DNA from: an uncultured Candidatus Saccharibacteria bacterium | GTDB taxonomy: Bacteria > Patescibacteriota > Minisyncoccia > UBA6257 > 2-01-FULL-56-20 | Direction of reading: 5' to 3' | Assembly: GCA_964484655.1 (NCBI GenBank) | Contig: CAZAFA010000003.1 | Coordinates: forward strand, 28,147-92,146 | Length of the DNA stretch: 64,000 nt | In this document: positions 1 through 40,347 of the stretch, piece after piece | How positions within the stretch are numbered: the first letter of the stretch is position 1 | Layout: every line of letters begins with the position of its first letter | Program-made: the position numbers and the translations under genes | The notes under the pieces: model-generated | Told to the model about the DNA's origin: nothing | The model's database searches: none | Seen by the model: the letters and a program-made list of their open reading frames with translations, nothing else

Positions 1-562
1 CGATTCCAATGGCCAGCATGGAGGCCGCTACTGCGCTCATGATCAGAATTAGTACAGAGCTAGAGGCTACATATTTCCAAGTTATACCTTCGAACTTCCT
101 ATAGAGTTTTTCGAGAATTCCCCAATAGATAAGGAACAACAAAGTTGAAAAGCCTGGGGAAACAAGGCGAGCAAATTTATGCCATTCATCTCCGTATAAG
201 CTGATCGTGTATTTCCATGTGTTGTAAAGAAACCATGCAATAGATGCCAATACGACTGTGCTTATGCCCGATGTGATATCTAGTCCTGTTTTCTTTCTAT
301 AGTGCTCTTCAACTTTCCAAGTAAATTTGAGGAAAGAGAAGCCCAACCACACTGATGTCAAAGATATTATTAATATCCATAAGAATTGGAGATTGGATAA
401 AGCAATTTTTGCTGCTGTATTTTCTGGGATATTTATATTGAGGAAGATTGCCCCAGTAGCAAGTAGAAATCCTGCAAAGGTTAGCCCTTCTTTTTTTTCG
501 TCCCAAAAGAGCTGAAAGGTTCTTGACAGACTAGGTTTAGCGAAATCTCCGTTCTCTGTCAT
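1..562 (-). CDS. Integral membrane protein, 3'-truncated by window edge. Low-GC ORF, start ATG at 560-562, multiple hydrophobic segments (MTENGDFAKPSLSRTFQLFWDEKKEGLTFAGFLLATGAIFLNINI...)
   Basis: Hand translation of the minus strand gives an uninterrupted ORF from 562 to position 1. It is not in the ORF track because it runs off the edge. GC is about 38% against about 67% for the window. Several predicted TM helices. Confidence 0.55.
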   Translation of the reverse strand, partial: MTENGDFAKPSLSRTFQLFWDEKKEGLTFAGFLLATGAIFLNINIPENTAAKIALSNLQFLWILIISLTSVWLGFSFLKFTWKVEEHYRKKTGLDITSGISTVVLASIAWFLYNTWKYTISLYGDEWHKFARLVSPGFSTLLFLIYWGILEKLYRKFEGITWKYVASSSVLILIMSAVAASMLAIGI

Positions 563-594
563 AGCTCAATAGACGCTGTGCATTGTTGTTTCGG

Positions 595-665
595 CGGGGG
601 CACCAGGAATTGAACCCGGATTGGCGGTTTTGGAGACCGCTGTCCTACCATTGAACGATACCCCC
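595..665 (-). tRNA. trnW: tRNA-Trp (anticodon CCA)
   Basis: Cloverleaf on minus strand: acceptor GGGGGTA/TGCCCCC, T-loop GGTTCAATTCC, anticodon loop CUCCAAA. 3'-CCA not encoded (CCG follows). Confidence 0.8.
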
Positions 666-681
666 AGGACCAGCTCCTATT

Positions 682-864
682 TTACTTCTTGGAGCTGATC
701 TTCACCTCCTTGTGGACGGTGTGCGAGCGATCCCACGGGCAGAACTTCGTGAGCTCGATCTTCCGCGTGACCTTCTTCTTGTTGCGGTGCGTGTAGTAGT
801 TACGACGCTTGCACTCGACGCAACGGAGGCCGATGAGATTGTCTGCGTATTTGACCTTGGCCAT
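682..864 (-). CDS. rpmG: 50S ribosomal protein L33 (Zn-ribbon form)
   Basis: 60-aa ORF MAKVKYADNLIGLRCVECKRRNYYTHRNKKK...FCPWDRSHTVHKE, typical L33 with a CxxC...C motif. The conserved rpmG-tRNA-Trp neighbourhood is present. Confidence 0.85.
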   Translation of the reverse strand: MAKVKYADNLIGLRCVECKRRNYYTHRNKKKVTRKIELTKFCPWDRSHTVHKEVKISSKK

Positions 865-891
865 GTGAGTGATAATTGATTCTTCCGACCG

Positions 892-964
892 GAGCCGATG
901 ACAGGACTCGAACCTGCGACCCTTTCCTTACCATGGAAATGCTCTACCAGCTGAGCTACATCGG
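892..964 (-). tRNA. trnT: tRNA-Thr (anticodon GGU)
   Basis: Minus-strand cloverleaf GCCGATG...CATCGGC, D-arm GCTCAGCTGGTAGAGC, anticodon loop AUGGUAA, T-loop GGTTCGAGTCC. No encoded CCA. Confidence 0.8.
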
Positions 965-1021
965 CGAGTATCCAGGCCGGGCCATTGTGCCTCATCGCCC
1001 CTTGACGAGCAAGGCCTGATG

Positions 1022-1095
1022 AGCCGGAGGTGGGATTCGAACCCACGGCCTGCTGTTTACAAAACAGCCGCTCTGACCGCTAAAGCTACTCCGGC
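1022..1095 (-). tRNA. trnT: tRNA-Thr (anticodon UGU)
   Basis: Minus-strand cloverleaf GCCGGAG...CTCCGGC, anticodon stem GCTGT/ACAGC with loop UUUGUAA, T-loop GGGTTCGAATCCCAC. No encoded CCA. Confidence 0.75.
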
Positions 1096-1233
1096 TCGCT
1101 CCGGACGCACCTCACGCGCAACGGAGACGCGAGGAGGGTACCACGGCCGCTCCCGTCCGGGGAGGCCACGGGGCCACGGATGTGTATAGCAGTCGAGTTC
1201 CGGGAGGCGGCTGCGTCCCCTACACTAGGCTGC

Positions 1234-4200
1234 ATGAGGAGCCGGTTCGTCCATCTGCATACCCACTCCCACTATTCGCTGCTGGACGGACTCGGCAAGA
1301 TCCCTGACCTGATCGCTCGGGCGAAGGAACTCGGCATGGATGCCCTGGCGCTCACCGACCACGGCAACCTGTACGGGAGCATCGAGTTCTACGAGCAAGC
1401 CAAGAAGGCGGGCATCAGGCCGATCCTCGGCATGGAGGCGTACATGGCGCCGCGCAGCCGCTTCGACAAGTCCCCCGGCGAGAAGTACTACCACCTCGTC
1501 CTGCTCGTCGAGAACGAGACCGGCTGGCAGAATCTCGTGAAGCTCGCCTCGCGCGCGAACCTCGAAGGCTACTACTACAAGCCGCGCATAGACCGCGAGC
1601 TCCTGCGGGAGCACCACGAGGGCCTCATCGCGCTCTCGGCGTGCATCGGCGGCGAGGTGAACACGGCTCTCCTGCAAGGGCGCCTCGACGACGCCGAGTC
1701 GCTCGCGTACGAGTACCAGGAGATTTTCGGCGCGGGGAACTTCTTCCTCGAGATCCAGGACCACCCGAATCTGCCGGAAGCGATCACCGTGCGGGAGCGC
1801 GCGATCGCGCTCTCGCAGAAGACGGGCATCCCGCTCGTCGCGACCGCCGACCTCCACTACGTGAAGAGCACCGACGCGCCGTATCACGACGTGCTGCTCG
1901 CGGTGCAGACCGGGAGCCAGGTCGGCGACGCCAACCGCATGAGCATGGCGAGCGACGACTTCTCGATGGCTTCCCCCGACGCGATGGCCAATGCCTTCGC
2001 CGACGTGCCCGACGCGATCTCGAACACCGTGGCCATAGCCGAGCGCTGCGACCTGCAGCTCGAGCTCGGCACACCGCTCCTGCCGCGATTCCGCACCCCG
2101 GACGGGCAGAGCGCGAACGAGCACCTCGCCTCGCTGCTGACCGAACGCCTTCCCTCCCGCTATCCGGATCATGACTCCGACGCGCGCGTCCAGGAGCGCC
2201 TGGCGTACGAGCTCGGCGTCATCGAGCGCACGGGCTTCGCGGACTACTTCCTCATCGTCGCGGACCTCGTGAACTGGGCCAAGGAGCACGGCATCTCCGT
2301 CGGCCCCGGCCGCGGGTCCGCCGCCGGCTCGCTGGTCTCGTACGTCCTCGGCATCACGAACGTCGACCCCCTCCGCTGGGACCTCCTCTTCGAGCGCTTC
2401 CTCAACCCGGAGCGCATCGAGATGCCGGATATCGACCTCGACTTCGCCGACACGCGCCGCGACGAGGTCCTCGACTACGCCCGCCGCACGTACGGCGACG
2501 ACCACGTCGCGCAGATCATCACCTTCGGGACCATGGCCGCGCGCGCGGCCGTCCGTGACGCTGGTCGCGCCATGGGCATCCCGCTCCCGCTCTGCGACCA
2601 GATCGCCAAACTCATCCCGGGCGGGCCGAAGGGCCTCGACGTGAAGACGGCGCGGCGCACCATCCCTGATCTCCAGGCCCTCGAGAAGGAGGAGCCTGAC
2701 GCGACGCGCCTCCTGGACGTCGCCGAGCACCTCGAGGGCGTCGTGCGCCACGCGTCCGTCCACGCGTGCGGCACCGTGATCTCGGACCGCCCGCTCACCG
2801 ACGTCGTCCCGGTGCAGCTCGCGCCGCAGAACAAGGACGTGGTCATCACGCAGCTGGACATGCGGAACGTCGAGCGGCTCGGCCTCCTGAAGATCGACCT
2901 CCTCGGCCTCACCGGCCTGACCACGATCGAGGAGACCAAGAAGCTCATCCGCGAGCTCCGCGGCGAGGAGCTCGACCTCGACGGCATCCCGCTCGACGAC
3001 GAGGCGACGTTCGAGCTCTTCCGCAAGGCGGACATGACCGGCGTCTTCCAGTTCGAGTCCGGGGGCATGCGCAAGGTCATGCGCGAGCTGCAGCCGACGG
3101 TCTTCGAGGACCTCGTCGCCGTGGTGGCGCTCTTCCGCCCCGGCCCGATGGACCTGATCCCGAGCTTCATCGCGCGCAAGAAGGGCGAGGAGCCGGTGAC
3201 GTACCTCCACCCCCGCCTCCAGCCGATCCTCGAGAACACGTACGGCATCGGCGTCTATCAGGAGCAGATGATGCGCATCGCCACGGACCTCGCGGGCTAC
3301 ACGCTCCCGGAGGCGGACAAGCTCCGCAAGGCGATCGGCAAGAAGATCAAGTCCCTCCTCGACGAGCAGGAACAGAAGCTCGTGAAGGGCATGGTCGCAA
3401 ACGGCATCGACCAGCGCACGGCGCAGGCGATCTGGGAGATGTTCCCGCCCTTCGCGCGGTACGGCTTCAACAAGAGCCACGCGGTCTGCTACGCGCTCAT
3501 CGGGTACCAGACCGCGTACCTCCGCGCGCACTACCCGATCGAGTTCGCGACGGCGCAGTTCAACGCGGACCGGCACGACACGGAGCGCATCGCCATGCTC
3601 GCGCACGAGGCGGCGCTCTCCGGCATCCAGCTCCTCCCGCCGGACGTCAACGCGAGCGGCGTGGGCTTCCTGCCCGAGGACGGCGACGTGCGCTTCGGGC
3701 TCTCCGCAATCAAGAACGTCGGCGAGGGCATCGCTGAGGCGATCCACCGCGAGCGGCAGCAGAACGGCCCGTACAAGGACCTCGCGCAGTTCGTCGAGCG
3801 CCTGTGCAGCCACAAGGACCTCAACAAGCGCTCCCTCGAAAGCCTCGCCAAGGCCGGCGCGCTGGACTGCTTCGGCTTCGAGCGCGGCGAGCTCGTCGCG
3901 AACCTCGACTACGTCGTCCAGTGCGGTTCCGCGCAAAAGCGACGCATCGAGAGCCACAAGGCCTCTCTCTTCGGCTCCATGCAGCAGGTCGCCCCGCAGG
4001 TGCGCCTCGACAACTGGCTCTCGGCGCCGCCCGTGTCGAGCAAGGAGAAGCTCTCGTGGGAGAAGGAGCTCATCGGCCTCTACGTCTCAGACCATCCCCT
4101 CTCCGAGCACGAGGAGGAGCGCAAGCGCATCGGCGCCATCCCGATCGCAGAAGCGCGCGCACGGATGGCGGACGCTCAGGTGCGCGTCGTGGGCCTCGTC

Positions 4201-4425
4201 TCGCGCGTGCAGAGCATCACGACCAAGTCGGGAGAGCCGATGGCCTTCGCGCTCATCGAGGACCTCTCCCCGGAGCCTATCGAGGTCGTGGTGTTCACCC
4301 GCGTGTACGAGCAGACGCGCGCAGTATGGCAGCAGGACCAGATCATCGCGATCGCCGGGAGGATCCAGAAGCGCGACGACGAGGTGAAACTCATCGCGGA
4401 CAAGGCGAAGGCGCTCGTGATATGA
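1234..4425 (+). CDS. dnaE: DNA polymerase III alpha subunit (PHP-Pol3 catalytic core, about 1063 aa)
   Basis: ORF 1180..4425 trimmed to ATG at 1234 (MRSRFVHLHTHSHYSLLDGL PHP motif). Contains the polymerase core (GSAAGSLVSY...), fingers, HhH and OB regions. Confidence 0.9.
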   Translation: MRSRFVHLHTHSHYSLLDGLGKIPDLIARAKELGMDALALTDHGNLYGSIEFYEQAKKAGIRPILGMEAYMAPRSRFDKSPGEKYYHLVLLVENETGWQNLVKLASRANLEGYYYKPRIDRELLREHHEGLIALSACIGGEVNTALLQGRLDDAESLAYEYQEIFGAGNFFLEIQDHPNLPEAITVRERAIALSQKTGIPLVATADLHYVKSTDAPYHDVLLAVQTGSQVGDANRMSMASDDFSMASPDAMANAFADVPDAISNTVAIAERCDLQLELGTPLLPRFRTPDGQSANEHLASLLTERLPSRYPDHDSDARVQERLAYELGVIERTGFADYFLIVADLVNWAKEHGISVGPGRGSAAGSLVSYVLGITNVDPLRWDLLFERFLNPERIEMPDIDLDFADTRRDEVLDYARRTYGDDHVAQIITFGTMAARAAVRDAGRAMGIPLPLCDQIAKLIPGGPKGLDVKTARRTIPDLQALEKEEPDATRLLDVAEHLEGVVRHASVHACGTVISDRPLTDVVPVQLAPQNKDVVITQLDMRNVERLGLLKIDLLGLTGLTTIEETKKLIRELRGEELDLDGIPLDDEATFELFRKADMTGVFQFESGGMRKVMRELQPTVFEDLVAVVALFRPGPMDLIPSFIARKKGEEPVTYLHPRLQPILENTYGIGVYQEQMMRIATDLAGYTLPEADKLRKAIGKKIKSLLDEQEQKLVKGMVANGIDQRTAQAIWEMFPPFARYGFNKSHAVCYALIGYQTAYLRAHYPIEFATAQFNADRHDTERIAMLAHEAALSGIQLLPPDVNASGVGFLPEDGDVRFGLSAIKNVGEGIAEAIHRERQQNGPYKDLAQFVERLCSHKDLNKRSLESLAKAGALDCFGFERGELVANLDYVVQCGSAQKRRIESHKASLFGSMQQVAPQVRLDNWLSAPPVSSKEKLSWEKELIGLYVSDHPLSEHEEERKRIGAIPIAEARARMADAQVRVVGLVSRVQSITTKSGEPMAFALIEDLSPEPIEVVVFTRVYEQTRAVWQQDQIIAIAGRIQKRDDEVKLIADKAKALVI

Positions 4426-4426
4426 A

Positions 4427-4453
4427 GAGGCGGACCCGCAGGTCCGCCTCTCT
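4427..4453. terminator. Bidirectional hairpin between convergent dnaE and the 4458..4883 gene
   Basis: GAGGCGGACC-CGCA-GGTCCGCCTC perfect 10-bp stem immediately after the dnaE stop. Confidence 0.5.
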
Positions 4454-4457
4454 GTAA

Positions 4458-4883
4458 TCACTTCTCCTTCTTCGCCCGCCTGCCGAGCAGGTCTCTCGCG
4501 AGCTTGCCGCCGAGGATGACGCATCCCGCGAGCAGCACGTACCACGCGGTCGGCGCGACCCACCAGGGCATCGCGAAGCTGTCTGCGACCGCCTGCACGT
4601 CGTTCATCGCGCGCACGAGTATGAACACGAGCGCTGATGTGAACATCAGCCCGGCGAGGACGACGTTGAACGTCAGCCTCTTGAGGCGGTCCGAGCGTTC
4701 CTCGGCGTGGCTCACCCAGATAGCGAGGACCAGGATGCCGACGACGTAGGCGATGAGGATCCGCCAGTCGAGATACATCTGCGCGACGAACGCGTAGAGA
4801 AGACTCAGGACGACGATCCACGAGGCCAGGTACAGGAAGAGCCTGACGGGTTTCGAAGCGGCAGCGCCGCCTTTTTCAGCCAT
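4458..4883 (-). CDS. Small polytopic membrane protein (141 aa), function unknown
   Basis: ORF with 3-4 hydrophobic helices (LFLYLASWIVVLSLLYAFVAQMYL...). GGGAGG RBS 10 nt upstream of the ATG. Confidence 0.6.
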   Translation of the reverse strand: MAEKGGAAASKPVRLFLYLASWIVVLSLLYAFVAQMYLDWRILIAYVVGILVLAIWVSHAEERSDRLKRLTFNVVLAGLMFTSALVFILVRAMNDVQAVADSFAMPWWVAPTAWYVLLAGCVILGGKLARDLLGRRAKKEK

Positions 4884-4927
4884 AAACGAAATACCTCCCA
4901 GTTATTCGGATATCAGAGAACTCGCTA

Positions 4928-4956
4928 CTTATACGTATCTTTTGCTTATTTGACAA
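4928..4956 (-). promoter_or_regulatory. Sigma70-like promoter for the 4458..4883 gene: TTGTCA-17 nt-TATAAG on the minus strand
   Basis: AT-rich spacer. -35 TTGTCA (plus-strand 4951-4956) and -10 TATAAG (4928-4933) with a 17-nt spacer, followed by a GGGAGG Shine-Dalgarno. Confidence 0.45.
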
Positions 4957-6598
4957 TATCGGCTCCGAGGAGCGCGCGCACGCGGCTCTCGCCGAGCGAC
5001 AGGAAGAAGGTCGGCAGCCGCGGGCCGGTCTCGCTGTCGGTGAGGAGCAGGCGGTAGAGCGCCTTGAAGAAGTCGCGCTGAGCCGCCTTCACGGCTGGGG
5101 TCGGCTCGTCATCGGGGTCCTGGCCGGCGGCTTCCTTGGGGATGCCGTACAGGAGCGTCGTGAGGCCTTCCAAGGTCCAGGCCTCCCCCATCCGGTCGGC
5201 CAGGGTACGGACCTGCTCCTGCAGGTCAGGCGCGAGCGCCTCCCAGGCTTCCCGGGCGAATCCCTCGCGCACGTGCGTGCGCTCGTCCTCGGGGAGGTAA
5301 CGCGTGACCCAGGCGATCGCGCAGGTCAGGCGCGGCTCGGTCTCGCCCTCGGAGAGCTCCCGGCCCAGCTGGTCGCTCGCGACGCGGAGGATCTGCTCGC
5401 GATTGCCGAGCGTGACGTCCGCTGCGGAGGACAGCGTGCGGAACGGGACGGCGACGGGCGCATGCAGGACCGCGCCGGCGCTGGTCGCGAGACAGCGCTC
5501 ACGGACGAGCCGTTCGGCCTCGCTCGCCTGCCCAGCCGCCACCTTGTCGCCGAAGCTGTCCCACTCGTCGTAGAGGCGGATGACCTCCTTCCCGAAGTCG
5601 ATGTCGAAGTGCTTGCCGTAGTGCCGCCGCACGTAGAGCCAGCGGAGCATCGCGGGCTCCAGGATCTCGAGCGCCTGGCCCGGCGTCGGGCTGCCGCCGG
5701 CCGAGCTCGAGATCTTGGAACGGCCCGCCATGCCGACGAACGCGTACTGGACGAAGTACGGCGCCTCGTAGCCGAAGAGCTTCACGATCTCCTTGCCGAC
5801 GGTGTAGCTGCTGTTAGGCGCGGCATGATCCTCGCCGCCCGGCTCGAAGACGACGCCCTCGTGCGCCCAGCGCATCGGCCAGTCCACCTTCCAGACGAGC
5901 TTCCCTTGGATCTTCTCGTCCAGCGAGTAGCTCTCGCGATGGCCGCAGGCGCAGCGGTACGCGATCGTCGCCGTGGCCTCGTCGTAGCTCTCGACGACCG
6001 CGTCGTCCTTGCCGCACGTCGCGCAGTACGGCTTGAACGGGTAGTACGCCGCGCGGCGCTCCGCGAGGGGCCGGTCCTGCGGGTTAGCGGTCTGGTACCT
6101 CGCGAGGATGTCGAATATCTCGCTGCGCTTGGCCATGGCCGTACGGATACCCGCGCGGTAGTCGCCGCGCGGGTACGCTTCGGACTGGCGCACGTAGCGG
6201 ACGTTCTTTCCTGAGACGACGCCGAGCCGAGCCGCGGCCTGCTCGAAGTCGCGGATGTGCCGGTCCGCGTAGGACGGGAACTCTCCTCCCGGATCGGGGA
6301 CGGCGGCGAGGGGCTTGCCGATGTGCTCCGCCCAGCTCTCAGGGACGCCCTTCGGGACCTTGCGGAAGCGGTCGTAGTCGTCCCAGGAGTAGATATGCTC
6401 GACCTTCCTGCCGCGCCGGCGGAGCTCCTCGGCCACGAGATGGACCGTCATCAGCTCCCGGAGGTTGCCGAGATGGATCGCGCCGGACGGGCTGATGCCC
6501 GAGGCGCAGACGATCGTCTCCGGCATCTCGGGCTTCGTCGCCGCGAACGCCTCGACGGCGTCCGCGGTCTGCTCTATCCAGAAGCGCTCCTCGGCCAT
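4946..6598 (-). CDS. lysK: Lysyl-tRNA synthetase, class I (archaeal-type LysK)
   Basis: 550-aa ORF. N-terminal SGISPSGAIHLGNLRE (HIGH-like), Zn-binding cysteines (CATCG...CACGH) and a KISSS (KMSKS-like) motif. Confidence 0.8.
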   Translation of the reverse strand: MAEERFWIEQTADAVEAFAATKPEMPETIVCASGISPSGAIHLGNLRELMTVHLVAEELRRRGRKVEHIYSWDDYDRFRKVPKGVPESWAEHIGKPLAAVPDPGGEFPSYADRHIRDFEQAAARLGVVSGKNVRYVRQSEAYPRGDYRAGIRTAMAKRSEIFDILARYQTANPQDRPLAERRAAYYPFKPYCATCGKDDAVVESYDEATATIAYRCACGHRESYSLDEKIQGKLVWKVDWPMRWAHEGVVFEPGGEDHAAPNSSYTVGKEIVKLFGYEAPYFVQYAFVGMAGRSKISSSAGGSPTPGQALEILEPAMLRWLYVRRHYGKHFDIDFGKEVIRLYDEWDSFGDKVAAGQASEAERLVRERCLATSAGAVLHAPVAVPFRTLSSAADVTLGNREQILRVASDQLGRELSEGETEPRLTCAIAWVTRYLPEDERTHVREGFAREAWEALAPDLQEQVRTLADRMGEAWTLEGLTTLLYGIPKEAAGQDPDDEPTPAVKAAQRDFFKALYRLLLTDSETGPRLPTFFLSLGESRVRALLGADIVK

Positions 6599-6667
6599 GC
6601 AGGCATTGTATCGGAAGGAGGCCGAGATGCTACGCTGGGGGCAGATACTTCAGAAGGAGGTCAACCT

Positions 6668-7060
6668 ATGGCACGTAACGAGAGAGCGATGCTGGCCACC
6701 CGCATCAGGGGCATCGAGCTGCACGTAGCGCGCGAGCTAGCGAAGTTCCGCGAAAAGCTGGACTTCAGCGAGCGCTTCCATTGGATCATGCAGGATCGCG
6801 CGAACCTGCTCGATTCCCGGAGCGTCGTCATCGCGCTCAAGATCAGCGTCGCGCGCGACCTGCTCAGACAGACCGTGCGGAACATCCAGATCATGCTTGG
6901 ATACGCCCGGAAGGCTGAGGACCTCGGCAACAAGCTGCAGATCCTCGCGTCCCAGAAGCGGGCCTACAGCATGGCGCAATGCCTGCAGCAGGCGCTCCTC
7001 GAATCAGTCGCGGAGCTCATGTCCGACGAGCGATACCAGGACATCCTGTACGGAGAATAG
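6668..7060 (+). CDS. Hypothetical protein (130 aa), predicted helical
   Basis: ORF 6257..7060 trimmed to the ATG at 6668, which follows a strong AGGAGG RBS (GAAGGAGGTCAACCTATG). No recognisable domain. Confidence 0.5.
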   Translation: MARNERAMLATRIRGIELHVARELAKFREKLDFSERFHWIMQDRANLLDSRSVVIALKISVARDLLRQTVRNIQIMLGYARKAEDLGNKLQILASQKRAYSMAQCLQQALLESVAELMSDERYQDILYGE

Positions 7061-7061
7061 A

Positions 7062-7090
7062 AAAAGGCGGCCGGTCGGCCGCCTTTCCCG
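7062..7090. terminator. Bidirectional hairpin AAGGCGGCCGG-TCGG-CCGCCTT shared by the 6668..7060 gene and greA
   Basis: GC stem with A-tract and T-tract flanks between convergent genes. Confidence 0.5.
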
Positions 7091-7100
7091 CGCCTGCGGC

Positions 7101-7562
7101 TCAGGCTACCGAGACGATCGTGTAGTGCACGACGCCCGCGGGCGTGGTCACGGTCACCTTGTCGCCGGCCTTCGCGCCGAGGAAGGCGCGGCCGAGCGGC
7201 GACTCGTTGCTTACCTTGCCGGCAGCGGGATCCGCCTCCTCCGAGCCGACGATCTCGTACTCGGTCGCCTTCGCGCTCGCGCCGCGCTTGGCGGTGACGA
7301 TCGAGCCGATGACGGCGACGTCGCTCTTGGCGTGCTTGATGATCTCCGCGTGCTTGATCATCTCCTCGAGCTCGACGATGCGCATCTCGACGCGCTCCTG
7401 CTCGTTGCGCGCCTCGTCGTAGGCCGTGTTCTCGGAGAGGTCGCCGAGCTCCTTCGCCTCGCGGAGACGGTCCGCGACCTCGTGCCGCTTCTCGGTGCGG
7501 AACAGCTCGAGCTCCTGCTTGAGCTCGTCGAGACGCTTCTGGGTGACGTAGTACTTGTCCAT
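7101..7562 (-). CDS. greA: Transcription elongation factor GreA
   Basis: 153 aa. Coiled-coil N-terminus with ...LSENTAYDEARNEQ... and an FKBP-like C-terminal domain. Confidence 0.85.
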   Translation of the reverse strand: MDKYYVTQKRLDELKQELELFRTEKRHEVADRLREAKELGDLSENTAYDEARNEQERVEMRIVELEEMIKHAEIIKHAKSDVAVIGSIVTAKRGASAKATEYEIVGSEEADPAAGKVSNESPLGRAFLGAKAGDKVTVTTPAGVVHYTIVSVA

Positions 7563-7577
7563 TTCCTGAAAAGCGGC

Positions 7578-8513
7578 CTACCGCTTCGGGTAGGCGCCGA
7601 TGATCGAATTATACCGGATTCTAAGGTTCTCCCCCAGGGTCTGCAAGTATGCCCGGGCCCCCACGGTCGAGCCCGGCCGGTCGTGCCAGACGACCGGAAT
7701 CTCCTTGATTTTCAGGCCCAGGCGCCGGGCCAGCACGAGTGCCTCGATGTCGAATCCCCAGCGCCGGGTCCGCAGGTGCGGGAATACCGCCTCTGCCGCA
7801 TGGGCCGTGAACGCCTTGAAGCCGCACTGGGTGTCGTGGATGCCGGGCAGGTTGGTGGCCTGGATGAAGAGGTTGCCGAGGCGCCCGAGGAGCCTCCGCG
7901 GGAGCGGCTGCGGCGGGCGCATGACCGACCCCGGCAGCGCGCGCGAGGCGAAGGCGATATCCGCCCCCTCCTGCAGGGCTGCTGCGAGCTTCCCGAATTC
8001 CTCGAAAGGGGTCGCGCCGTCCGCGTCGGCGAACAGGCGGATCGCGCCGCGCGCCTCCTGCATGCCGCGCGCGACCGCGCTCCCCTTGCCCGCGTTCGGC
8101 TCCTGGCGGACCAGGCGCAGCTGCGGGAAATCCCGCATCATGCGCTCCACGATCTCCGCGGTCCGGTCGGTCGAGCCGTCGTCGACCACCAGCACCTCGA
8201 AGGGCTCGCTGCGCGTGAGGAAGTACGCGTGCGCGGCGACCAGGACCGGCGCGATGCGCTCCGCCTCGTTGTAGGCCGGGATGATGACCGACACCTCGGG
8301 CTGCATGCCGAGGAAGACGCTGTCCCCGGGAGGGGCCGGTCGCTCCTCGGCTACCGTGACCGGCACGGCCGCCTTCTTGCGCGTCGCGCGCTTCTTCGGC
8401 GCAGCCGCCGCTTCTGATGTCGCCGCCTTCGCGGGGCGCTTCCGCGGCGGCTTCGGCTTCTCGATAGCCGGGTCGGCGATCTGCTCGTCGAGGACTTTCT
8501 TCCGTCCGGGCAT
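7578..8513 (-). CDS. GT2 family glycosyltransferase (polyprenol-phosphate sugar transferase-like) with a basic N-terminal extension
   Basis: VSVIIPAYNEAERI...EVLVVDDGSTDRT (GT-A fold with a DxD motif). Lys/Pro/Ala-rich N-terminus. Confidence 0.7.
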   Translation of the reverse strand: MPGRKKVLDEQIADPAIEKPKPPRKRPAKAATSEAAAAPKKRATRKKAAVPVTVAEERPAPPGDSVFLGMQPEVSVIIPAYNEAERIAPVLVAAHAYFLTRSEPFEVLVVDDGSTDRTAEIVERMMRDFPQLRLVRQEPNAGKGSAVARGMQEARGAIRLFADADGATPFEEFGKLAAALQEGADIAFASRALPGSVMRPPQPLPRRLLGRLGNLFIQATNLPGIHDTQCGFKAFTAHAAEAVFPHLRTRRWGFDIEALVLARRLGLKIKEIPVVWHDRPGSTVGARAYLQTLGENLRIRYNSIIGAYPKR

Positions 8514-8531
8514 AGGGCCAGAGTATACCAG

Positions 8532-9302
8532 CTAGAGCGGGCAGTCCGTGACGGTCAGCACGACCGGCCCGTCCTCGGTGATCGCGACCGTGTGCTCGCT
8601 GTGCGCCGCGATGCTGCCGTCGAACGTCGCGAAGCTGTCATCGGGCATCTGGCGCACGATGCGGCTCCCGAGCGAGAACATCGGCTCGATGGCGATGACG
8701 AGCCCCGGCGTCAGGCGCATGCCCGCGCCCGGCTTCCCCGCGTTGGCCACGTACGGCGCCTCGTGCAGCTCGCGGCCGATGCCGTGGCCGCCGAGGCCCT
8801 CGACGACGCTCACCTTGCGCTTGCGCGCGACCTGGCTGACGGCGTGGCTGATGTCGCCGAGATGCCGTCCCGGCTGCGCCGCGGCGATGCCTGCGGCGAG
8901 GGCCTCCTCGGTCGCAAGGACGAGGTCGCGCACCTGCTCCGGAACCTCGCCGACGAGGAAGGTGCGCGCCGAATCCGAATGCCAGCCCTTGTGGACGAGT
9001 CCTAGGTCGACGGTCAGGACGTCCCCTTCCTTGAGGACGTACGCGCCCGGGAGGCCGTGCACCACCGTCTCGTTGACCGAGGCGCAGATCGTCGCGGGGA
9101 AGGGCCGCTCAGCCCCCGCAGGCGCGTATCCGAGGAAGGACGGCTCGTCGCCGCCCGCCTGGATGAGCTCGCGCGCGAGCGCGTCGAGCTCGCGCGTCGA
9201 GACGCCTGGCGCCACGCGCGCGGCGACCTGGTCGAGCACGCGCGCGAGGCGCCTCCCCGCCTCGGCCATGAGCGCGATCTCCTCGCGCGTCTTCGTCCGC
9301 AT
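8532..9302 (-). CDS. map: Methionine aminopeptidase type I
   Basis: ORF 8532..9551 trimmed to MRTKTREEIALMAEAGR. Pita-bread fold motifs. Its start overlaps the adk stop. Confidence 0.85.
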   Translation of the reverse strand: MRTKTREEIALMAEAGRRLARVLDQVAARVAPGVSTRELDALARELIQAGGDEPSFLGYAPAGAERPFPATICASVNETVVHGLPGAYVLKEGDVLTVDLGLVHKGWHSDSARTFLVGEVPEQVRDLVLATEEALAAGIAAAQPGRHLGDISHAVSQVARKRKVSVVEGLGGHGIGRELHEAPYVANAGKPGAGMRLTPGLVIAIEPMFSLGSRIVRQMPDDSFATFDGSIAAHSEHTVAITEDGPVVLTVTDCPL

Positions 9303-9976
9303 CACTCCCCGTCGAGCGCCTTGAGGATGTCCGTGAACACCATGACCGGCGCCTGGTCCCCGTCGATCGCCTGGACCGGGATGCCGAGCTTCTTCACGAA
9401 CTCGACGACCGGCAGCGTCTTCTCCTCGTACTCCTTGATCCGCGTTGCCGCCTTGTCGGCGTCGGCGCGGACGAAGAGCTCGCCGCCGCAGACGCGGCAC
9501 CGCTTGGGCGCTTCCTGCGCGGGGCCGGTCGCCAGCTGCGGGCGGCCGCATACCGTGCAGGTGGCGCGCCGGCTGTTGCGGATGTCGCCGACCTCCCGCG
9601 GGATCTCGATGACCACGCAGCGGACGTTCTCCGCGCCGTACCCGGCGACGAGCGTCGGCATTATGGCCTCCGCCTCGCCGAGCGTGCGCGGGCTCCCGCC
9701 GAGCACGCAGCTCGTACGGTGCTCCGCCAGCTGCGCGAGATGCTCGCTGAGGACGCCGATCACGAACGAAGGCGTCATGAGCAGGCCGCTGTCGTAGCGC
9801 TCGCGTTCGGCGGCGATCACCGGATCGGACTGGCGCTCCGGATCATGGACGATCTTGCCGACGAGCCTGCCGGTGTCGACGACCTCGAAGGCGAGGGTGT
9901 CGGCGAGCAGCATGGCCTGCGTGCTCTTCCCCGAGCCCGGGGGGCCGAAGATGATGACCGCGCGCGCCGCCTGCAT
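9302..9976 (-). CDS. adk: Adenylate kinase (Zn-lid form)
   Basis: P-loop GPPGSGKSTQA and a lid CTVCG...CRVCGG. Confidence 0.9.
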   Translation of the reverse strand: MQAARAVIIFGPPGSGKSTQAMLLADTLAFEVVDTGRLVGKIVHDPERQSDPVIAAERERYDSGLLMTPSFVIGVLSEHLAQLAEHRTSCVLGGSPRTLGEAEAIMPTLVAGYGAENVRCVVIEIPREVGDIRNSRRATCTVCGRPQLATGPAQEAPKRCRVCGGELFVRADADKAATRIKEYEEKTLPVVEFVKKLGIPVQAIDGDQAPVMVFTDILKALDGE

Positions 9977-9977
9977 G

Positions 9978-11263
9978 CTACCTGCGGTCGTATTCGCGGA
10001 CCTGGAGCTGCGAGTCGATCTGGCGCATGGACTCGAGCGCCACGGCGACCACGATGAGGATGGCGGTGCCGGAGAGCGAGAGCGCCGTCGAGGAGCCCGC
10101 GTTGACCCCGGTGATGGCGGCGACGAGCGCCTGCACGATCGCCGGCAGGATGGCGATGATCGCGAGCGCGAGCGCGCCGTAGAACGTGATGCGGCTGATG
10201 ACGTGCCGGAACGTGTTCTGGGTCTGCTCGCCCGGACGGACGCCGGGGATGAAGCCGCCGCTCCGCTGCAGGTTCTTGGAGATCTCCGCCGGATCGAACG
10301 TGACGGACGTGTAGAAGTACGTGAACGCGAAGACGAGGACGAAGTAGACGCTGTTGTGCGCCCACTGGTTGTTCAGGAAGGCGTTCGCCCACTCGTTCAC
10401 CCGGACGCCCCACTCGGGCGTGATGAGCGCGACCATCTGCGCGAAGAACTGCGGGAAGGTCAGGACCGAGATCGCGAAGATGAGCGGGATCATGCCCGCC
10501 TGGTTCACCTTGAGCGGGAGGTAGCTGGAGCTGCCGCCCATGAGGCGGTTGCCGCGCACCTGGCGCGCATAGGCGATGGGCATGCGCCGCTCCCCCTCCG
10601 TGAGATAGACCACGCCGAGCACGATCGCGAGGGTCAGGACGCCGAACCCGATGAGGATGTCCGGCGAGTAGTTCCGGAGGCCCTGGGTGATGGTGCCCGG
10701 AAGGCCCGCGAGGATGCCCGAGGCGATGATGAGCGAGATGCCGTTGCCGAGCTTCTGCTCGCTGATGATCTCGCCGATCCAGAGCGCGAGCATGGATCCC
10801 GCGACGATGATGAGCACGTTGCGGAGCATGTCGACCGGGCCGAGCGGGTCGATGATCCCCTGCGAGGTGAAGAGCATGAGGAAGCCGTACGCCTGGATGG
10901 CTGCGAGCGGCACCGTGATGTAGCGGCTGATGCGGTTGAACTTGGCCTGGCCGCGCGCGCCCTCCTCGTAGTACATCTCCTTGAGGCGCGGGAAGATGAT
11001 CGTCAGCAGCTGCATGATGATCGTGGCGGTGATGTACGGGCCGACGCCGAGCATGACCAGCGAGAGCGTCGAGAGGCCGCCTCCCGAGAAGAAGTCGAGG
11101 AAGCCGAGCAGCGTGCTGCCGCCGAAGAACGAGGCGAGCCGGGCCGGATCGATCTGTGGGATCGGGATGGCGGCGAGGACCCGGTACGCGACGAGGAGCC
11201 CCACCACCGTGAGGACACGGGTGCGGAGCTCGGGAATGGCGAAAAGCTTGGCGAAGCGCTGCA
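9978..11263 (-). CDS. secY: Preprotein translocase SecY
   Basis: 10-TM protein, ORF trimmed to MQRFAKLFAIPELRTRV. Conserved spc-operon position after rplO. Confidence 0.9.
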
Positions 11264-30561: not shown

Positions 30562-31066
30562 CGGCGTGCAGGGCAGCAGAGCGGATGCCGAACGCCGCCG
30601 CCGCGGCGTTCGCGGTCGCCTGGAACCCGAAGACGAAGACGAGGTAATATACAGCTGAGAATCCTGGCGGATGCACGTCCAGGAGAGACAAGCCGATGAT
30701 CACCGCCAGCGCGTAGTCGACGTGGTCGAGTACCGACCGCGTGCCCTCCTTCATGCCCAGCCGGCGCTTGACGAAGCTGCTCGCGAGAGTGCCGGCAAGC
30801 GCGAAGAGCCCGAGCATGAAGCCGAGCCTCGGATCGCCTTGCAGCCATCCCACCGTCCCGGCGCAGAGTACAATGAACGCGGAACCGGCGACGGTACGGC
30901 TGTCCCCGAGGATGCGATGGCGGCCGAGACGTCGCCCGCCATCGAGCGGCGTCGCGGGCAGGATCCGCCAGCGCGCGATCAGGAAGTACCAGAAGACGGC
31001 GGTCGCGGCGTTCGCGATCCAAGCAGGAGCACCGTACCACACGGTGCTCATGAGCAGATCGATCAT
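30536..31066 (-). CDS. CDP-archaeol synthase-like (DUF46/CarS family) CTP-transferase membrane protein
   Basis: WRILPATPLDGGRRLGRHRILGDSRT and C-terminal SFVKRRLGMKEGTRSVLDHVD match the CarS/CdsA-superfamily signature. 176 aa, 4-5 TM. Its start overlaps the LamG gene stop (ATGA). Confidence 0.55.
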   Translation of the reverse strand: MIDLLMSTVWYGAPAWIANAATAVFWYFLIARWRILPATPLDGGRRLGRHRILGDSRTVAGSAFIVLCAGTVGWLQGDPRLGFMLGLFALAGTLASSFVKRRLGMKEGTRSVLDHVDYALAVIIGLSLLDVHPPGFSAVYYLVFVFGFQATANAAAAAFGIRSAALHAASAGRRSR

Positions 31067-32718
31067 CTAGGCGTCATCGGGTCTGGGGGTTCGTCGCCGC
31101 CGCCCGGAGGAGGCGCTCCAAAGTACAAATTATGCAAGGCGATGATATCGCTCTGGCTAAGGGCCCCGTTATAGATGCGCAGCTCGTCAATGGTGATGTC
31201 ACCATCTCCCTTGTTACCGAGGCTCATATAGTCTCCGAATATTGACGTTTCGCTCGATGCAGGATGCGAAGGATTGCTCCCATACGTCTCGAAGAGCAGG
31301 ATGCCATCCTGATACACCATGCCATGCCCACCCTCGCGAACAATGGTTATCATCTTCCAACTATACGGGGCAAGCGTGTTGGTATTAGCTGAAAGCCAGG
31401 TAGCCCATCCTCCGTCAGCTTTTGACTCACCAAAAAAGGACCAACCGCTTGGGTCTCCACCGTATCCCGAGATGCGACTTCCCGCCTGTAGGCGAATATG
31501 GTAATCGACCTGCAATCCGTCGAGGTCACCCTTCTTGAAGACATTCCATTGCCGAGATGAATCAGACACGGACCCGTCCGCGTTAACGTTCCATAGGAAG
31601 TTGATACTCATATCTCCAGGGAGCTGCATGGACGGTGAATCGGGCACGGTCATTCGATTGTTTGAAAAGAGCATACCTGTGTTGCTGAAGCCGGCTGGCC
31701 ACGAATTTATGTCGAAGGTGCCATAGTTCAAATATTCACTGTTGTCTCCAGCGGTATTGCCGCTACCCTCGTCAAAAGACCAATGTCCGACTAATGTCGC
31801 GATTACTCCGCAAGTATTGTTCGCGTTGTAGATGCTGTCATTACAGTCGATGCCTACCTGCTGTATATAGCGCCGCCTGCCGTTGGTAGGAGCGGAATCT
31901 TGCAGATACATCGTACTGGCCGCAGGATAACCGTCTGCATCAGAGTCAACCTGCCAGATGTTTGTCTGAAGGATGGCACAGCCGCCGCAGAGCGCGATAC
32001 TTCCGTTCGAAAGGATCGAAATTTGCATACCGCTGTTGAAAGCGAAGTTTGCATTAAGCGTCAAGGAATTATTGATGGTAACGTTGCCGTTATCGACTCC
32101 GTCCGCTGACGATATGACGCAGGGATCGTCCTTGTCCCCAAGGGTATAGTCGCCTCCTGGTGGAATACCGCAGGCGTCGGACCAAGCGAGAACCACTGAT
32201 GAGGAATCATTACCTGCCTCGGCCGTGATGGTCGTATAGTACTTGGTGTTATGCGTGTCGTGCACGACCCACTCTCCACGATAGCGTCCGCGAATAACCT
32301 CATCTGCAAAAGCATTCTGCGTATTGGTCTTTTCGCGACCAGCTACGAAGCCGGCAAGCCGATCCGGCACAGCCTCAGCAACTCCGACATAAGCTAGATT
32401 CAACCGAACGATCTTGTTGTCAGTCTCAATGTCAGCATAGACCGCAGTGACCGGTCCGCGAGATTCGATGACCGCCTCGATGACCTGCGTGTCGCCGACG
32501 TGCACATCAGGCGGGTTGATCGTCGCCTGGACGATCTTCGGCCATACCTCGGCCGCCTGTGCGATCGAGTAAGTCTGCTCGCCGCTCGGCAGGTTCGCGA
32601 GAGGTCCCGTTGGTGCAGGTTTGTCGAGCTTGTCGTAGTAGCTTATCGGGAGGAGTGCGAGCACCGCAATCGCGAGAAGGCTCCCCGCTCCTAAGCCGAA
32701 CATGAGTTTCCTATTCAT
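31063..32718 (-). CDS. Secreted or anchored protein with a C-terminal LamG/concanavalin-like lectin domain. Locally lower GC.
   Basis: N-terminal signal/TM (MNRKLMFGLGAGSLLAIAVLALL). C-terminal LVGHWSFDEGSGNTAGDNSEYLNYGT...LRIYNGALSQSDIIAL is typical of the Laminin_G_3 domain. Asn/Ser/Gly/Cys-rich middle. Confidence 0.6.
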   Translation of the reverse strand: MNRKLMFGLGAGSLLAIAVLALLPISYYDKLDKPAPTGPLANLPSGEQTYSIAQAAEVWPKIVQATINPPDVHVGDTQVIEAVIESRGPVTAVYADIETDNKIVRLNLAYVGVAEAVPDRLAGFVAGREKTNTQNAFADEVIRGRYRGEWVVHDTHNTKYYTTITAEAGNDSSSVVLAWSDACGIPPGGDYTLGDKDDPCVISSADGVDNGNVTINNSLTLNANFAFNSGMQISILSNGSIALCGGCAILQTNIWQVDSDADGYPAASTMYLQDSAPTNGRRRYIQQVGIDCNDSIYNANNTCGVIATLVGHWSFDEGSGNTAGDNSEYLNYGTFDINSWPAGFSNTGMLFSNNRMTVPDSPSMQLPGDMSINFLWNVNADGSVSDSSRQWNVFKKGDLDGLQVDYHIRLQAGSRISGYGGDPSGWSFFGESKADGGWATWLSANTNTLAPYSWKMITIVREGGHGMVYQDGILLFETYGSNPSHPASSETSIFGDYMSLGNKGDGDITIDELRIYNGALSQSDIIALHNLYFGAPPPGGGDEPPDPMTPR

Positions 32719-32721
32719 GCT

Positions 32722-39804: not shown

Positions 39805-39862
39805 CGTGTAAAAAATAAGCTCAGAAATTATTTGAGGGCATCATGCGATGCCCTCAAATACT

Positions 39863-40249
39863 TCATAGCGTCTCTTTTTCGGTTCCAAAGAATCTATGTA
39901 TAACCTCGTCGAAAGTATCGGCTCCTCCCGGCAGATGTTCCCTGACCGCCCAGGCGAAACCGACGAAGCCATTTCGAAACTTATTGCCGATGTATTCATC
40001 AGCAAGATCGGGATACAGATCCAGCTTGAAGATCGCGCTGAATGACCGAAGCATGACCTCTATTCCGCTCGCATACGGATTGCTCCGTATGAGGCAGGAC
40101 GCCTTGTGTTGGGCAGCATCGAGCATGGCTGCGACAACGTCGTCCTCGGTCATTCCGGCTGATTTTTTCTCTACAACCTCCAAGATTGCGGTTCGTAATT
40201 CCGATATCTTCTTTTCTCTCTCTTTCTGCTTTGCAGAAAAATTTCCCAT
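39863..40249 (-). CDS. Hypothetical protein (128 aa) in a low-GC islet
   Basis: ORF MGNFSAKQKEREKKISELRTAILEVV... Local GC is about 45% against about 67% background. Confidence 0.45.
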   Translation of the reverse strand: MGNFSAKQKEREKKISELRTAILEVVEKKSAGMTEDDVVAAMLDAAQHKASCLIRSNPYASGIEVMLRSFSAIFKLDLYPDLADEYIGNKFRNGFVGFAWAVREHLPGGADTFDEVIHRFFGTEKETL

Positions 40250-40347
40250 ATCCTATCTCCTTAGTTTCTAAATTGAGTGATAACACTCTTGCCGAATACA
40301 TTATACAACAAATTATGGAATTAGCAATATATCGCGTCCTTCCTCTC

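What the first reader, a model, noticed from the sequence alone, without database searches (positions are those of the whole stretch)
1..562. Low-GC membrane-protein gene where the rpmG/tRNA-Trp neighbourhood usually continues into secE-nusG
The first 560 nt are about 38% GC and encode an uninterrupted polytopic membrane protein on the minus strand, which runs off the window. It begins directly downstream of tRNA-Trp and rpmG. In many bacteria secE-nusG-rplK follow at this position. Instead an AT-rich gene with many Lys, Asn, Ile and Phe codons sits here, which suggests horizontal acquisition or a strongly divergent membrane gene. It is missing from the ORF track because it is edge-truncated.
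Basis: seen in the sequence. Interest (0 to 1): 0.55.

Follow-up and report, generated by a model that had tools for sequence, protein, structure and literature searches.

The report
Foreign membrane gene beside tRNA-Trp
A small, recently imported AT-rich gene for an uncharacterised membrane protein sits directly after tRNA-Trp in a GC-rich ultra-small (CPR) bacterium; its distant relatives sit inside restriction-modification and other defence gene clusters, so it is an ordinary kind of horizontally acquired islet carrying an unstudied, probably defence-linked, protein family.

Summary
Window 1-562 (minus strand) is an uninterrupted 187-codon reading frame from the ATG at 562. It is 40% GC with GC3 0.41, against host genes at GC3 0.87-0.95, and it starts 30 nt after tRNA-Trp.

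Identical contigs from the same strain complete the gene. It encodes 227 aa with 5-6 transmembrane helices. The low-GC patch is only about 768 bp and ends just before the promoter of a 23S rRNA gene.

Synteny with the closest relative stops 8 nt past the tRNA. A 99.6%-identical strain carries different low-GC DNA from that same nucleotide onward.

The protein has no Pfam, NCBIfam, PHROG, PADLOC or PDB match. An exhaustive HMMER search nevertheless finds about 110 distant relatives (25-38% identity). Two of these lie next to hsdS: one between hsdM and hsdS, one just upstream of hsdS on a short contig. One lies upstream of a type II restriction enzyme in Ca. Azambacteria. One lies next to an integrase and a candidate defence gene.

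The secE-nusG expectation does not apply. No Paceibacterota relative examined has those genes after tRNA-Trp.

Verdict: a recently acquired single-gene islet at a tRNA-flank hotspot. A defence-related role is inferred, not shown. Moderate-to-low interest.

The parts
1..562 (-). First 187 of 227 codons of the low-GC membrane-protein gene (P0001). The remaining 40 codons and the stop lie beyond window position 1, at L001 10865-10986.
   Evidence: Translation. Completed by contigs L001 and L002, both 100% identical. GC and GC3 both 0.41. Belongs to a family of 111 representatives. AlphaFold pLDDT 93.5.
563..592 (-). 30-nt junction between the tRNA-Trp 3' end and the start codon. This is the left boundary of the islet. 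Synteny with relatives and with strain L003 ends here.
   Evidence: L003 diverges after L001 10273, which is window 592. The L010 alignment ends at window 585. No promoter-like site was found here.
593..665 (-). tRNA-Trp (CCA). The foreign DNA begins at its 3' end.
   Evidence: ARAGORN. Rfam tRNA, 59.7 bits.
682..864 (-). rpmG (ribosomal protein L33), a native high-GC3 gene upstream in the same orientation.
   Evidence: Pfam Ribosomal_L33, E = 2.3e-18. GC3 0.87.
891..1095 (-). tRNA-Thr(GGT) at 891-965 and tRNA-Thr(TGT) at 1021-1095. These are the native tRNA genes heading the tRNA-rpmG-tRNA cluster.
   Evidence: ARAGORN and Rfam. The same order occurs in relatives L005 and L010.

Best explanation
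Window 1-592 is the larger part of a 768-bp single-gene islet of foreign, unameliorated DNA. It lies between the 3' end of tRNA-Trp and the promoter of a 23S rRNA gene in a high-GC Candidatus Paceibacterota (CPR/Patescibacteria) genome.

**Shown.**
- The gene is intact and encodes a 227-aa all-helical integral membrane protein with 5-6 membrane-spanning segments.
- The protein belongs to a real but uncharacterised family.
- The islet is strain-specific.
- The tRNA-Trp 3' flank is a variable site, both between near-identical strains and across the lineage.
- Family members elsewhere lie within or next to restriction-modification and other defence genes, or next to an integrase.

**Inferred.**
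- The gene arrived recently by horizontal transfer from a low-GC donor, probably another Patescibacterium. It came either as a fragment or as the remnant of a defence or mobile island, through recombination or integration at the tRNA flank.
- It is probably transcribed by read-through from the tRNA-rpmG-tRNA unit, because it has no recognisable promoter of its own.
- Its most likely role is that of an envelope-located accessory of defence islands. It could hinder entry of foreign DNA, or act as a membrane partner or effector alongside restriction systems.
- In this genome it stands alone, without any adjacent restriction gene.

My estimates: about 0.9 for 'recent horizontal acquisition at a tRNA-flank hotspot', and about 0.4 for 'defence-related function'.
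For: **Composition.** GC3 is 0.41 against 0.87-0.95 in host genes, z = -5.7.

**The junctions are real.** Three assemblies give the same sequence across them: the window itself, and L001 and L002 from two different sequencing runs, 100% identical over 10,864 and 3,170 bp. They span dnaE through the tRNAs and the gene into 23S rRNA.

**Strain variability.** L003 is 99.6% identical up to the nucleotide after tRNA-Trp. After that it is unrelated DNA of 42% GC carrying a different ORF.

**Lineage comparison.**
- L010 is syntenic with window 585-10619 and then diverges.
- High-GC relatives L005 and L010 have high-GC native genes after tRNA-Trp.
- The cargo after tRNA-Trp differs in every relative examined.

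**A real family.**
- 111 representatives at E <= 1e-3 and 57 at E <= 1e-10, mostly about 200-260 aa (a few short fragments and two longer proteins of 588 and 705 aa), 25-38% identical.
- The conserved motifs are FW..KK, G.(L/I)FL.I..P.N..A..AL...Q..WL and NLW.Y...LY. P0001 keeps every invariant and near-invariant residue.
- With this alignment the AlphaFold model reaches pLDDT 93.5 and pTM 0.80.

**Genomic contexts of family members.**
- L038 and L039: hsdM - X - 287-aa TM protein - hsdS - Shedu SduA - hsdR, tightly packed.
- L037: X overlaps the start of an hsdS gene, Methylase_S E = 4.5e-25.
- L047 (Ca. Azambacteria): X lies 9 nt upstream of an Eco47II-like type II REase and a C5 methylase. 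Type III res, GIY-YIG and DpnI genes are nearby.
- L042 and L043: X sits beside an integrase, HTH_17 and the candidate defence gene PDC-M36A, E = 5e-28.
- Three of six informative contexts are directly adjacent to restriction-modification genes. The binomial P is 1.5e-4 to 1.6e-2 for assumed background rates of 2-10%.

**Published background.** Patescibacteria carry many genomic islands, exchange genes mostly within the phylum, and have acquired a type I R-M system on an island (PMC12455944).
Against: **Mechanism of insertion.**
- There is no integrase, transposase or att-like direct repeat of the tRNA 3' end in the 768-bp islet or its flanks, so the mechanism is unknown.
- It is unclear what lay here ancestrally. 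The flank on the other side is a 23S rRNA gene rather than the genes seen in relatives, so a larger rearrangement is also involved.

**Defence role.**
- No restriction or defence gene adjoins the gene in this genome.
- The defence association rests on only six informative neighbourhoods out of about 110 family clusters. One neighbourhood (L045, between dnaK and dnaJ, with DUF87/TraG-like ATPases) shows no defence gene.
- No PADLOC model matches the protein (E = 0.32 at best).
- No structural analogue was found in the PDB or BFVD, so the biochemical activity is entirely inferred.

**Expression.** Expression is untested, and no own promoter was detected.
Confidence: 0.6

Rival explanations
1. 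Decayed remnant. The gene is the last surviving passenger of a larger integrative or defence island, for example a type I R-M island, that was otherwise deleted. It now has no function in this host.
For: - The islet is only 768 bp, with no mobility gene and no partner genes.
- Relatives of the protein normally sit inside multi-gene R-M operons or next to an integrase.
- Strain L003 has different low-GC DNA of the same GC (0.42) at the same junction, which could be another part of a larger island.
Against: - The ORF is intact over 227 codons and keeps all family-invariant residues.
- The sequence is identical in three assemblies, so there is no sign of decay.
- GC3 shows no amelioration, which argues for a recent event rather than long neutral residence.
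Confidence: 0.22
2. Phage-derived gene of the moron or superinfection-exclusion type, left by a prophage that integrated at tRNA-Trp.
For: - tRNA 3' ends are classic phage attachment sites (established knowledge).
- Small membrane proteins are typical superinfection-exclusion factors.
- One family member lies beside an integrase and an excisionase-like HTH_17 gene.
Against: - There is no relative in 2.9 million IMG/VR contigs.
- There is none in 50,697 GenBank phage records.
- There is no PHROG hit, best E = 0.2.
- There is no structural match in BFVD.
- No phage genes and no att repeat flank it.
Confidence: 0.08
3. Native, lineage-specific and fast-evolving membrane protein gene. Its AT-richness would simply reflect its amino-acid composition.
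For: - Membrane proteins are rich in Phe, Ile and Leu codons.
- Family members are somewhat lower in GC than their flanks in other genomes too.
Against: - GC3, which is nearly free of amino-acid constraint, is 0.41 against 0.87-0.95. The native membrane protein SecY has GC3 0.95.
- The gene is absent from the closest relatives and from a 99.6%-identical strain.
- There is no paralogue in the window or in any related locus.
Confidence: 0.03
4. Assembly or binning artefact: a chimeric join between a high-GC CPR contig and a low-GC contaminant.
For: - The compositional switch at a tRNA gene is abrupt.
- The far side ends in a 23S rRNA gene, where assemblies often break or misjoin.
Against: - The low-GC segment is enclosed on both sides by high-GC sequence within single contigs.
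- Two independent runs (SRR11845619, SRR11845634) and the source contig of the window give base-identical sequence across both junctions.
Confidence: 0.03
5. One reading: a Wzy/O-antigen ligase or EpsG-type polysaccharide polymerase, or a SecE fusion replacing secE.
For: It is a polytopic membrane protein. A glycosyltransferase gene lies about 7 kb away, at window 7578-8513.
Against: - No Pfam or NCBIfam match at E <= 1, either for the protein or as a family-wide hit.
- At 227 aa with 5-6 helices it is far smaller than Wzy or EpsG proteins.
- No relative in this lineage has secE at this position.
Confidence: 0.02

Closest known systems
tRNA-flanking genomic islands or islets (integrase-mediated insertion at tRNA 3' ends; strain-variable 'hotspots')
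   Same: - Foreign composition.
- An exact start at the 3' end of a tRNA gene.
- Presence or absence, and different cargo, among near-identical strains.
- Cargo drawn from the defence and mobile gene pool.
   Different: - Only 768 bp and a single gene.
- No integrase.
- No duplicated tRNA 3' segment (att repeat).
- The distal boundary abuts an rRNA promoter, and synteny beyond it is also changed.
Accessory genes embedded in type I restriction-modification operons (for example the anticodon nuclease PrrC between hsd genes in E. coli; Abi or Shedu-type genes in R-M islands)
   Same: One homologue of the protein sits between hsdM and hsdS, and another sits directly upstream of hsdS. Both are co-oriented and tightly packed. 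A third precedes a type II REase. This is the same 'guest gene inside an R-M cluster' architecture.
   Different: - The protein is an integral membrane protein with no nuclease, ATPase or other recognisable domain.
- No functional link to R-M has been shown.
- The window copy has no R-M neighbour.
Membrane proteins that block incoming DNA or act as membrane effectors in abortive infection (phage Sie/Imm-type exclusion proteins; TM effectors such as SLATT domains)
   Same: It is a small multi-pass membrane protein found in defence contexts. Its conserved residues cluster in the TM1-loop-TM2 region and at the end of TM3.
   Different: - No sequence or structural similarity: PADLOC SLATT E = 0.32, PHROG E = 0.2, Foldseek E > 0.3.
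- It has not been found in any phage collection.

Membership tests
tRNA-linked integrative genomic island | Insertion begins at or within the 3' end of a tRNA gene | tested here: met
   Identity with strain L003 stops 1 nt after tRNA-Trp, and the alignment with relative L010 stops 8 nt after it.
tRNA-linked integrative genomic island | Atypical base composition and codon usage | tested here: met
   GC 0.40 and GC3 0.41 against host GC 0.66 and GC3 about 0.92; z = -5.7.
tRNA-linked integrative genomic island | Variable presence among close relatives | tested here: met
   Absent from L003 (99.6% identical flank), L005 and L010, and absent from all 27 related loci.
tRNA-linked integrative genomic island | Integrase or recombinase gene in the island | tested here: not met
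   The islet holds one 227-aa membrane-protein ORF only. The next feature is the 23S rRNA gene.
tRNA-linked integrative genomic island | Direct repeat of the tRNA 3' segment at the distal boundary (attL/attR) | tested here: not met
   The repeat finder on L001 10150-11450 gives no direct repeat of the tRNA end. It gives only a 12-nt inverted match, 92% complementary, which is likely chance.
Type I restriction-modification operon component | Co-located with hsdM, hsdS or hsdR | tested here: not met
   The window copy is flanked by tRNA-Trp and 23S rRNA. Homologue P0018 lies between hsdM and hsdS, and P0017 lies directly upstream of hsdS.
   There are 0 Pfam and 0 NCBIfam families at E <= 1 for the fragment or the full protein. 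No shared Pfam family was found among 80 relatives.
Known anti-phage defence proteins (PADLOC-DB 2.0) | Significant match to a defence-system model | tested here: not met
   The best hit is RTasSLATT at E = 0.32. P0018 and P0029 give none.
Uncharacterised ~210-aa membrane-protein family defined here (alignment A2) | Full-length HMMER similarity plus the conserved motifs FW..KK / G..FL.I..P.N..A..AL...Q..WL / NLW.Y...LY | tested here: met
   There are 111 representatives at E <= 1e-3, with a best non-self E of 2.6e-28. P0001 carries all 2 invariant and 12 near-invariant residues.
Phage-encoded protein family | Relatives present in phage or viral sequence collections | tested here: not met
   No relatives in IMG/VR, INPHARED, PHROGs or BFVD.

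The most novel reading that the evidence does not exclude
The family is a previously unrecognised, genuine component of restriction-based immunity in CPR/Patescibacteria. It would be a membrane protein that works with type I and type II R-M enzymes, for example by positioning them at the site of DNA entry, by sensing or blocking incoming DNA at the envelope, or by acting as an abortive-infection effector. The window copy would be a mobile 'solo' version captured at a tRNA-flank hotspot, and small single-gene low-GC islets 3' of tRNA genes would be a recurrent way these tiny genomes sample defence genes. A second such islet sits 3' of tRNA-Glu at window 39810-40347.
Probability: 0.25. Interest if true: 0.6.

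Novelty: new member of a known kind. Interest (0 to 1): 0.35.

Why it matters
The phenomenon itself is textbook: a recently acquired islet at a tRNA flank.

It matters modestly for three reasons.

1. It is a clean, base-resolved example of very recent horizontal transfer into a streamlined CPR genome. The GC3 gap is 0.41 against 0.92, and two different cargoes occupy the same nucleotide position in near-identical strains.
2. It corrects an expectation of gene order. In this Paceibacterota lineage rpmG-tRNA-Trp is not followed by secE-nusG. It borders a variable region instead.
3. It exposes a membrane-protein family of about 110 clusters that is absent from Pfam, NCBIfam, PHROGs and PADLOC and recurs inside restriction-modification clusters of uncultured bacteria. 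CPR bacteria mostly lack CRISPR and are thought to rely on R-M-type defences, so an R-M-linked membrane partner would be worth testing.

Tried and rejected
**Searches that found nothing or too little.**
- The word-indexed homology search found only the protein itself, which at first suggested an ORFan. The exhaustive HMMER search overturned that.
- A repeat of the word-indexed search with the family profile recovered only 4 proteins.
- Pfam, PHROGs, PADLOC and NCBIfam gave nothing significant for the protein.
- Pfam across 80 family members gave only scattered single weak hits.
- A PDB sequence-profile search gave a best E of 0.045, to SbtA, which is not credible.
- The single-sequence AlphaFold model was poor (pLDDT 58.6). 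The alignment-based model was good, but Foldseek against the PDB and BFVD gave nothing at E < 0.3.
- Two metagenome contigs pattern scans, one for the rpmG/tRNA-Trp junction and one for the tRNA-Trp 3' half, returned nothing, so no further strain variants were recovered.
- Viral-contig scans (one search failed for lack of a conserved block) and phage and plasmid tblastn searches gave no matches.
- A search for an att-like direct repeat was negative.

**Other checks.**
- The alternative cargo ORF of strain L003 has no detectable homologue or family.
- I looked for a shared partner gene among family neighbourhoods: the 287-aa, 238-aa and 225-aa neighbours and the C-terminal domain of the 588-aa fusion P0091. 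None are related to each other. The P0091 C-terminal domain has no Pfam or PADLOC hit, and its only PDB matches are short WD40-repeat stretches that do not pass the threshold on their own.
- I looked for NusG, L11, L1, L10 and L12 in the window and in all loci. The first three are absent everywhere examined.
- A literature search found no description of this family.

Full report
**1. The observation**

On the minus strand, window 1-562 reads as 187 codons without a stop, beginning at the ATG at 560-562. The mechanical ORF list omits it only because it runs off the window edge.

Composition:
- The first 500 bases are 39.4% GC. The rest of the window is mostly 60-75%.
- The completed gene has GC1 = GC2 = GC3 = 0.41.
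- Nine host genes in the window, including the membrane protein SecY, have GC3 of 0.87-0.95.
- Against all 684-bp windows the gene lies 5.7 SD below the mean.
- No shuffle of the islet (0 of 2000) gives a stop-free run as long.

Directly upstream in the same orientation are tRNA-Trp(CCA) at 593-665, rpmG at 682-864, tRNA-Thr(GGT) at 891-965 and tRNA-Thr(TGT) at 1021-1095. Two details need correcting: Asn is not enriched, and the gene turns out to be short.

**2. Extending beyond the window**

An exact look-up of the rpmG product returned contigs from two sequencing runs. L001 and L004 come from SRR11845619, and L002 comes from SRR11845634. Both are 100% identical to the window, over 10,864 bp and 3,170 bp respectively.

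These contigs show the following, in L001 coordinates:
- The ORF ends 40 codons past the window edge, giving 227 aa (10303-10986).
- It is followed by about 55 nt of AT-rich spacer.
- Next comes a perfect 10-bp GC-rich hairpin (11048-11072).
- Next comes the only sigma-70-like promoter in the region, TTGACT-16-TATACT (11085-11112).
- From 11416 onward there is a bacterial 23S rRNA gene, Rfam E = 4.8e-116.

The low-GC patch is therefore only about 768 bp at 40.4% GC and holds one gene. It is enclosed by high-GC sequence on both sides in independent assemblies, so it is not a chimera.

**3. Lineage and comparative context**

A genome-collection scan with L33 places the window in Candidatus Paceibacterota (CPR/Patescibacteria). 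The closest species representative, L010, has 88% L33 identity.

Breakpoint evidence:
- L010 aligns with window 585-10619 at 71-85% nucleotide identity, from secY through adk, map, greA, lysS, dnaE, the tRNAs and rpmG to tRNA-Trp. The alignment stops 8 nt after the tRNA.
- Contig L003, from another metagenome, is 99.6% identical (2 mismatches in 557 bp) up to the nucleotide after the tRNA-Trp 3' end. It then continues with unrelated DNA of 42% GC carrying a different, unidentifiable ORF.

What relatives carry after tRNA-Trp:
- High-GC relatives (L005, L010) have high-GC native genes: SRPBCC/AHSA1-like, thioredoxin-like, DsbB, SDR and then rplJ-rplL.
- More distant relatives each carry something different: an A4 peptidase, an AIR-synthase-like protein, UDG, or proteins of unknown function.
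- L006-L009 have an extra ORF between rpmG and tRNA-Trp.

No NusG, L11 or L1 is detectable within 10 kb of rpmG in any of the 27 loci, nor anywhere in the 64-kb window.

The tRNA-Trp 3' flank is thus a lineage-wide synteny breakpoint and, at strain level, a swap site.

**4. What the protein is**

No model in Pfam, NCBIfam, PHROGs or PADLOC matches it. The word-indexed search of 5.8 billion proteins found only the protein itself.

The exhaustive HMMER scan of 1.84 billion cluster representatives found 111 relatives at E <= 1e-3, of which 57 are at E <= 1e-10. The best non-self hit is at 2.6e-28. Most are about 200-260 aa and 25-38% identical.

An 80-sequence alignment shows conserved motifs:
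- FW..KK before helix 1.
- G.(L/I)FL.I..P(E/D)N..A..AL.N.Q..WL across helix 1, the loop and helix 2.
- NLW.Y...LY after helix 3.

The window protein keeps every invariant and near-invariant residue, which argues that it is functional.

With the alignment, AlphaFold gives a confident all-helical model: pLDDT 93.5, pTM 0.80, five long helices. Hydropathy suggests six hydrophobic segments. The distribution of Lys and Arg fits an N-in/C-in topology, but that is my inference. The model's 58-residue third helix leaves 5 versus 6 spans open.

Other negative results:
- Foldseek finds nothing in the PDB or BFVD at E < 0.3.
- The family profile finds nothing credible among PDB sequences.
- The family is absent from IMG/VR, GenBank phages and PLSDB plasmids.

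One member is annotated by NCBI as a hypothetical protein from Candidatus Azambacteria, in the Parcubacteria group. All member loci examined are 25-46% GC. That matches the GC of the islet and points to a low-GC donor, probably patescibacterial.

**5. Where relatives live**

Ten loci from eight family members were retrieved. Six members gave informative neighbourhoods. 'X' is the family member.

| Locus | Neighbourhood |
|---|---|
| L038 / L039 | hsdM - X - 287-aa membrane protein - hsdS - Shedu SduA (PADLOC 3e-14) - hsdR, with gaps of a few nt or overlaps |
| L037 | a 21-codon gene end - X - hsdS (Methylase_S 4.5e-25), with the starts of X and hsdS overlapping |
| L047, Ca. Azambacteria | X, then 9 nt later an Eco47II-type REase (PADLOC REase_II 7e-52) and a C5 methylase; a type III res-like helicase/endonuclease, GIY-YIG and DpnI genes nearby |
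| L042 / L043 | tyrosine integrase and HTH_17 on one side of X; a 225-aa ORF and a PDC-M36A candidate defence gene (5e-28) on the other |
| L045 / L046 | dnaK - X - 238-aa ORF - DUF87/TraG-like ATPases ... dnaJ; this looks like an insertion into dnaK-dnaJ, with no defence gene recognised |
| L041 | a 588-aa fusion of X with an unidentifiable soluble C-terminal domain |

L040 and L044 are too short to judge.

Three of six neighbourhoods are directly adjacent to R-M genes. This is unlikely by chance: the binomial P is 1.5e-4 to 1.6e-2 for assumed backgrounds of 2-10%. The sample is small, however. No common partner gene is shared between these loci.

Published work on aquifer Patescibacteria reports many genomic islands, mostly intra-phylum transfer, and an island-borne type I R-M system (PMC12455944). 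This fits the pattern.

**6. Most likely explanation**

Shown:
- An intact gene with foreign composition lies exactly at the tRNA-Trp 3' end.
- It is strain-variable.
- It belongs to a real family that recurs in R-M, defence and mobile contexts.

Inferred:
- It was recently acquired from a low-GC patescibacterial donor, at a recombination or integration hotspot.
- It is transcribed by read-through from the tRNA-rpmG-tRNA unit, since it has no promoter of its own.
- It has an envelope-level role linked to defence.

The insertion mechanism is unresolved. There is no integrase and no att repeat, and the distal flank (23S rRNA) differs from relatives, so a rearrangement accompanied or followed the insertion.

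The main rival is that it is merely a stranded remnant of a larger island, about 0.2. Phage origin, a native gene, an assembly artefact and the Wzy/EpsG/SecE ideas are each disfavoured by specific tests, listed under the rival explanations.

**7. Novelty and score**

The kind of feature, a tRNA-flank islet of horizontally acquired DNA, is well known. The specific family is undescribed, and its R-M association is a lead rather than a result.

Interest is 0.35. The most novel reading still open is a bona fide R-M-associated membrane component of CPR immunity. I give it about 0.25 probability, and it would merit about 0.6.

Noticed in passing
window 39810-40347: A second small low-GC islet (GC 0.35-0.53 against 0.66) lies immediately 3' of tRNA-Glu(TTC), which is at 40348-40425 on the minus strand. 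It holds one ORF, 39863-40249 (-), of 128 aa. That ORF has a strong Shine-Dalgarno sequence (AAGGAGATAGGATATG), unlike host genes, and a perfect terminator-like hairpin at about 39823-39862. It has no Pfam hit. The architecture is the same as at tRNA-Trp, which suggests that tRNA 3' flanks are recurrent entry points in this genome.
   Followed up: partly
window 31063-36354 (-): Two large adjacent ORFs, one of 551 aa with a Laminin_G_3/ConA-like domain and one of 1210 aa with no domain. Their GC is 0.54-0.58 and GC3 0.61-0.67, against about 0.92 for host genes. This is another block of foreign-looking composition, possibly surface proteins.
   Followed up: partly
L001 11085-11981 (just beyond window position 1): A 23S rRNA gene starts 430 nt after the membrane-protein gene. 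It has its own TTGACT-16-TATACT promoter and no 16S rRNA gene upstream, so the rRNA genes appear unlinked in this CPR genome. Contigs L001 and L002 both end inside it.
   Followed up: partly
L006 6225-6707 (also L007-L009): In a related Paceibacterota species, a 160-aa ORF of lower GC (0.53-0.56 against 0.66-0.72), with no Pfam domain, is inserted between rpmG and tRNA-Trp. So both sides of this tRNA accept insertions in the lineage.
   Followed up: partly
L045 794-6950: Family member P0019 lies between dnaK and dnaJ, together with a 238-aa ORF, two DUF87/TrwB/TraG-like ATPases and an oppositely oriented RsmE-like methyltransferase. This appears to be a mobile or type-IV-like block splitting the chaperone operon. 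The gene itself is 25% GC against 36% for its flanks.
   Followed up: partly
L038 6419-15343: A type I R-M operon carries three guest genes: the family member, a 287-aa protein with a soluble N-terminal part and C-terminal TM helices, and a Shedu SduA nuclease. It is followed by a 231-aa ORF of unknown function. This is a composite defence operon on a 160-kb metagenomic contig.
   Followed up: partly
L001 11041-11052 vs 10238-10249: A 12-nt inverted copy (92% complementary) of a tRNA-Trp internal segment sits exactly at the distal edge of the islet, overlapping the GC-rich hairpin. It is probably chance, being one of 15 such pairs in 1.3 kb, but its position is notable.
   Followed up: no
window 4946-6598 (-) vs L005/L006: The window genome and L010 carry a class I lysyl-tRNA synthetase (tRNA-synt_1f) next to dnaE. 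Relatives L005 and L006 instead have a class II tRNA-synt_2 enzyme in the corresponding neighbourhood.
   Followed up: no
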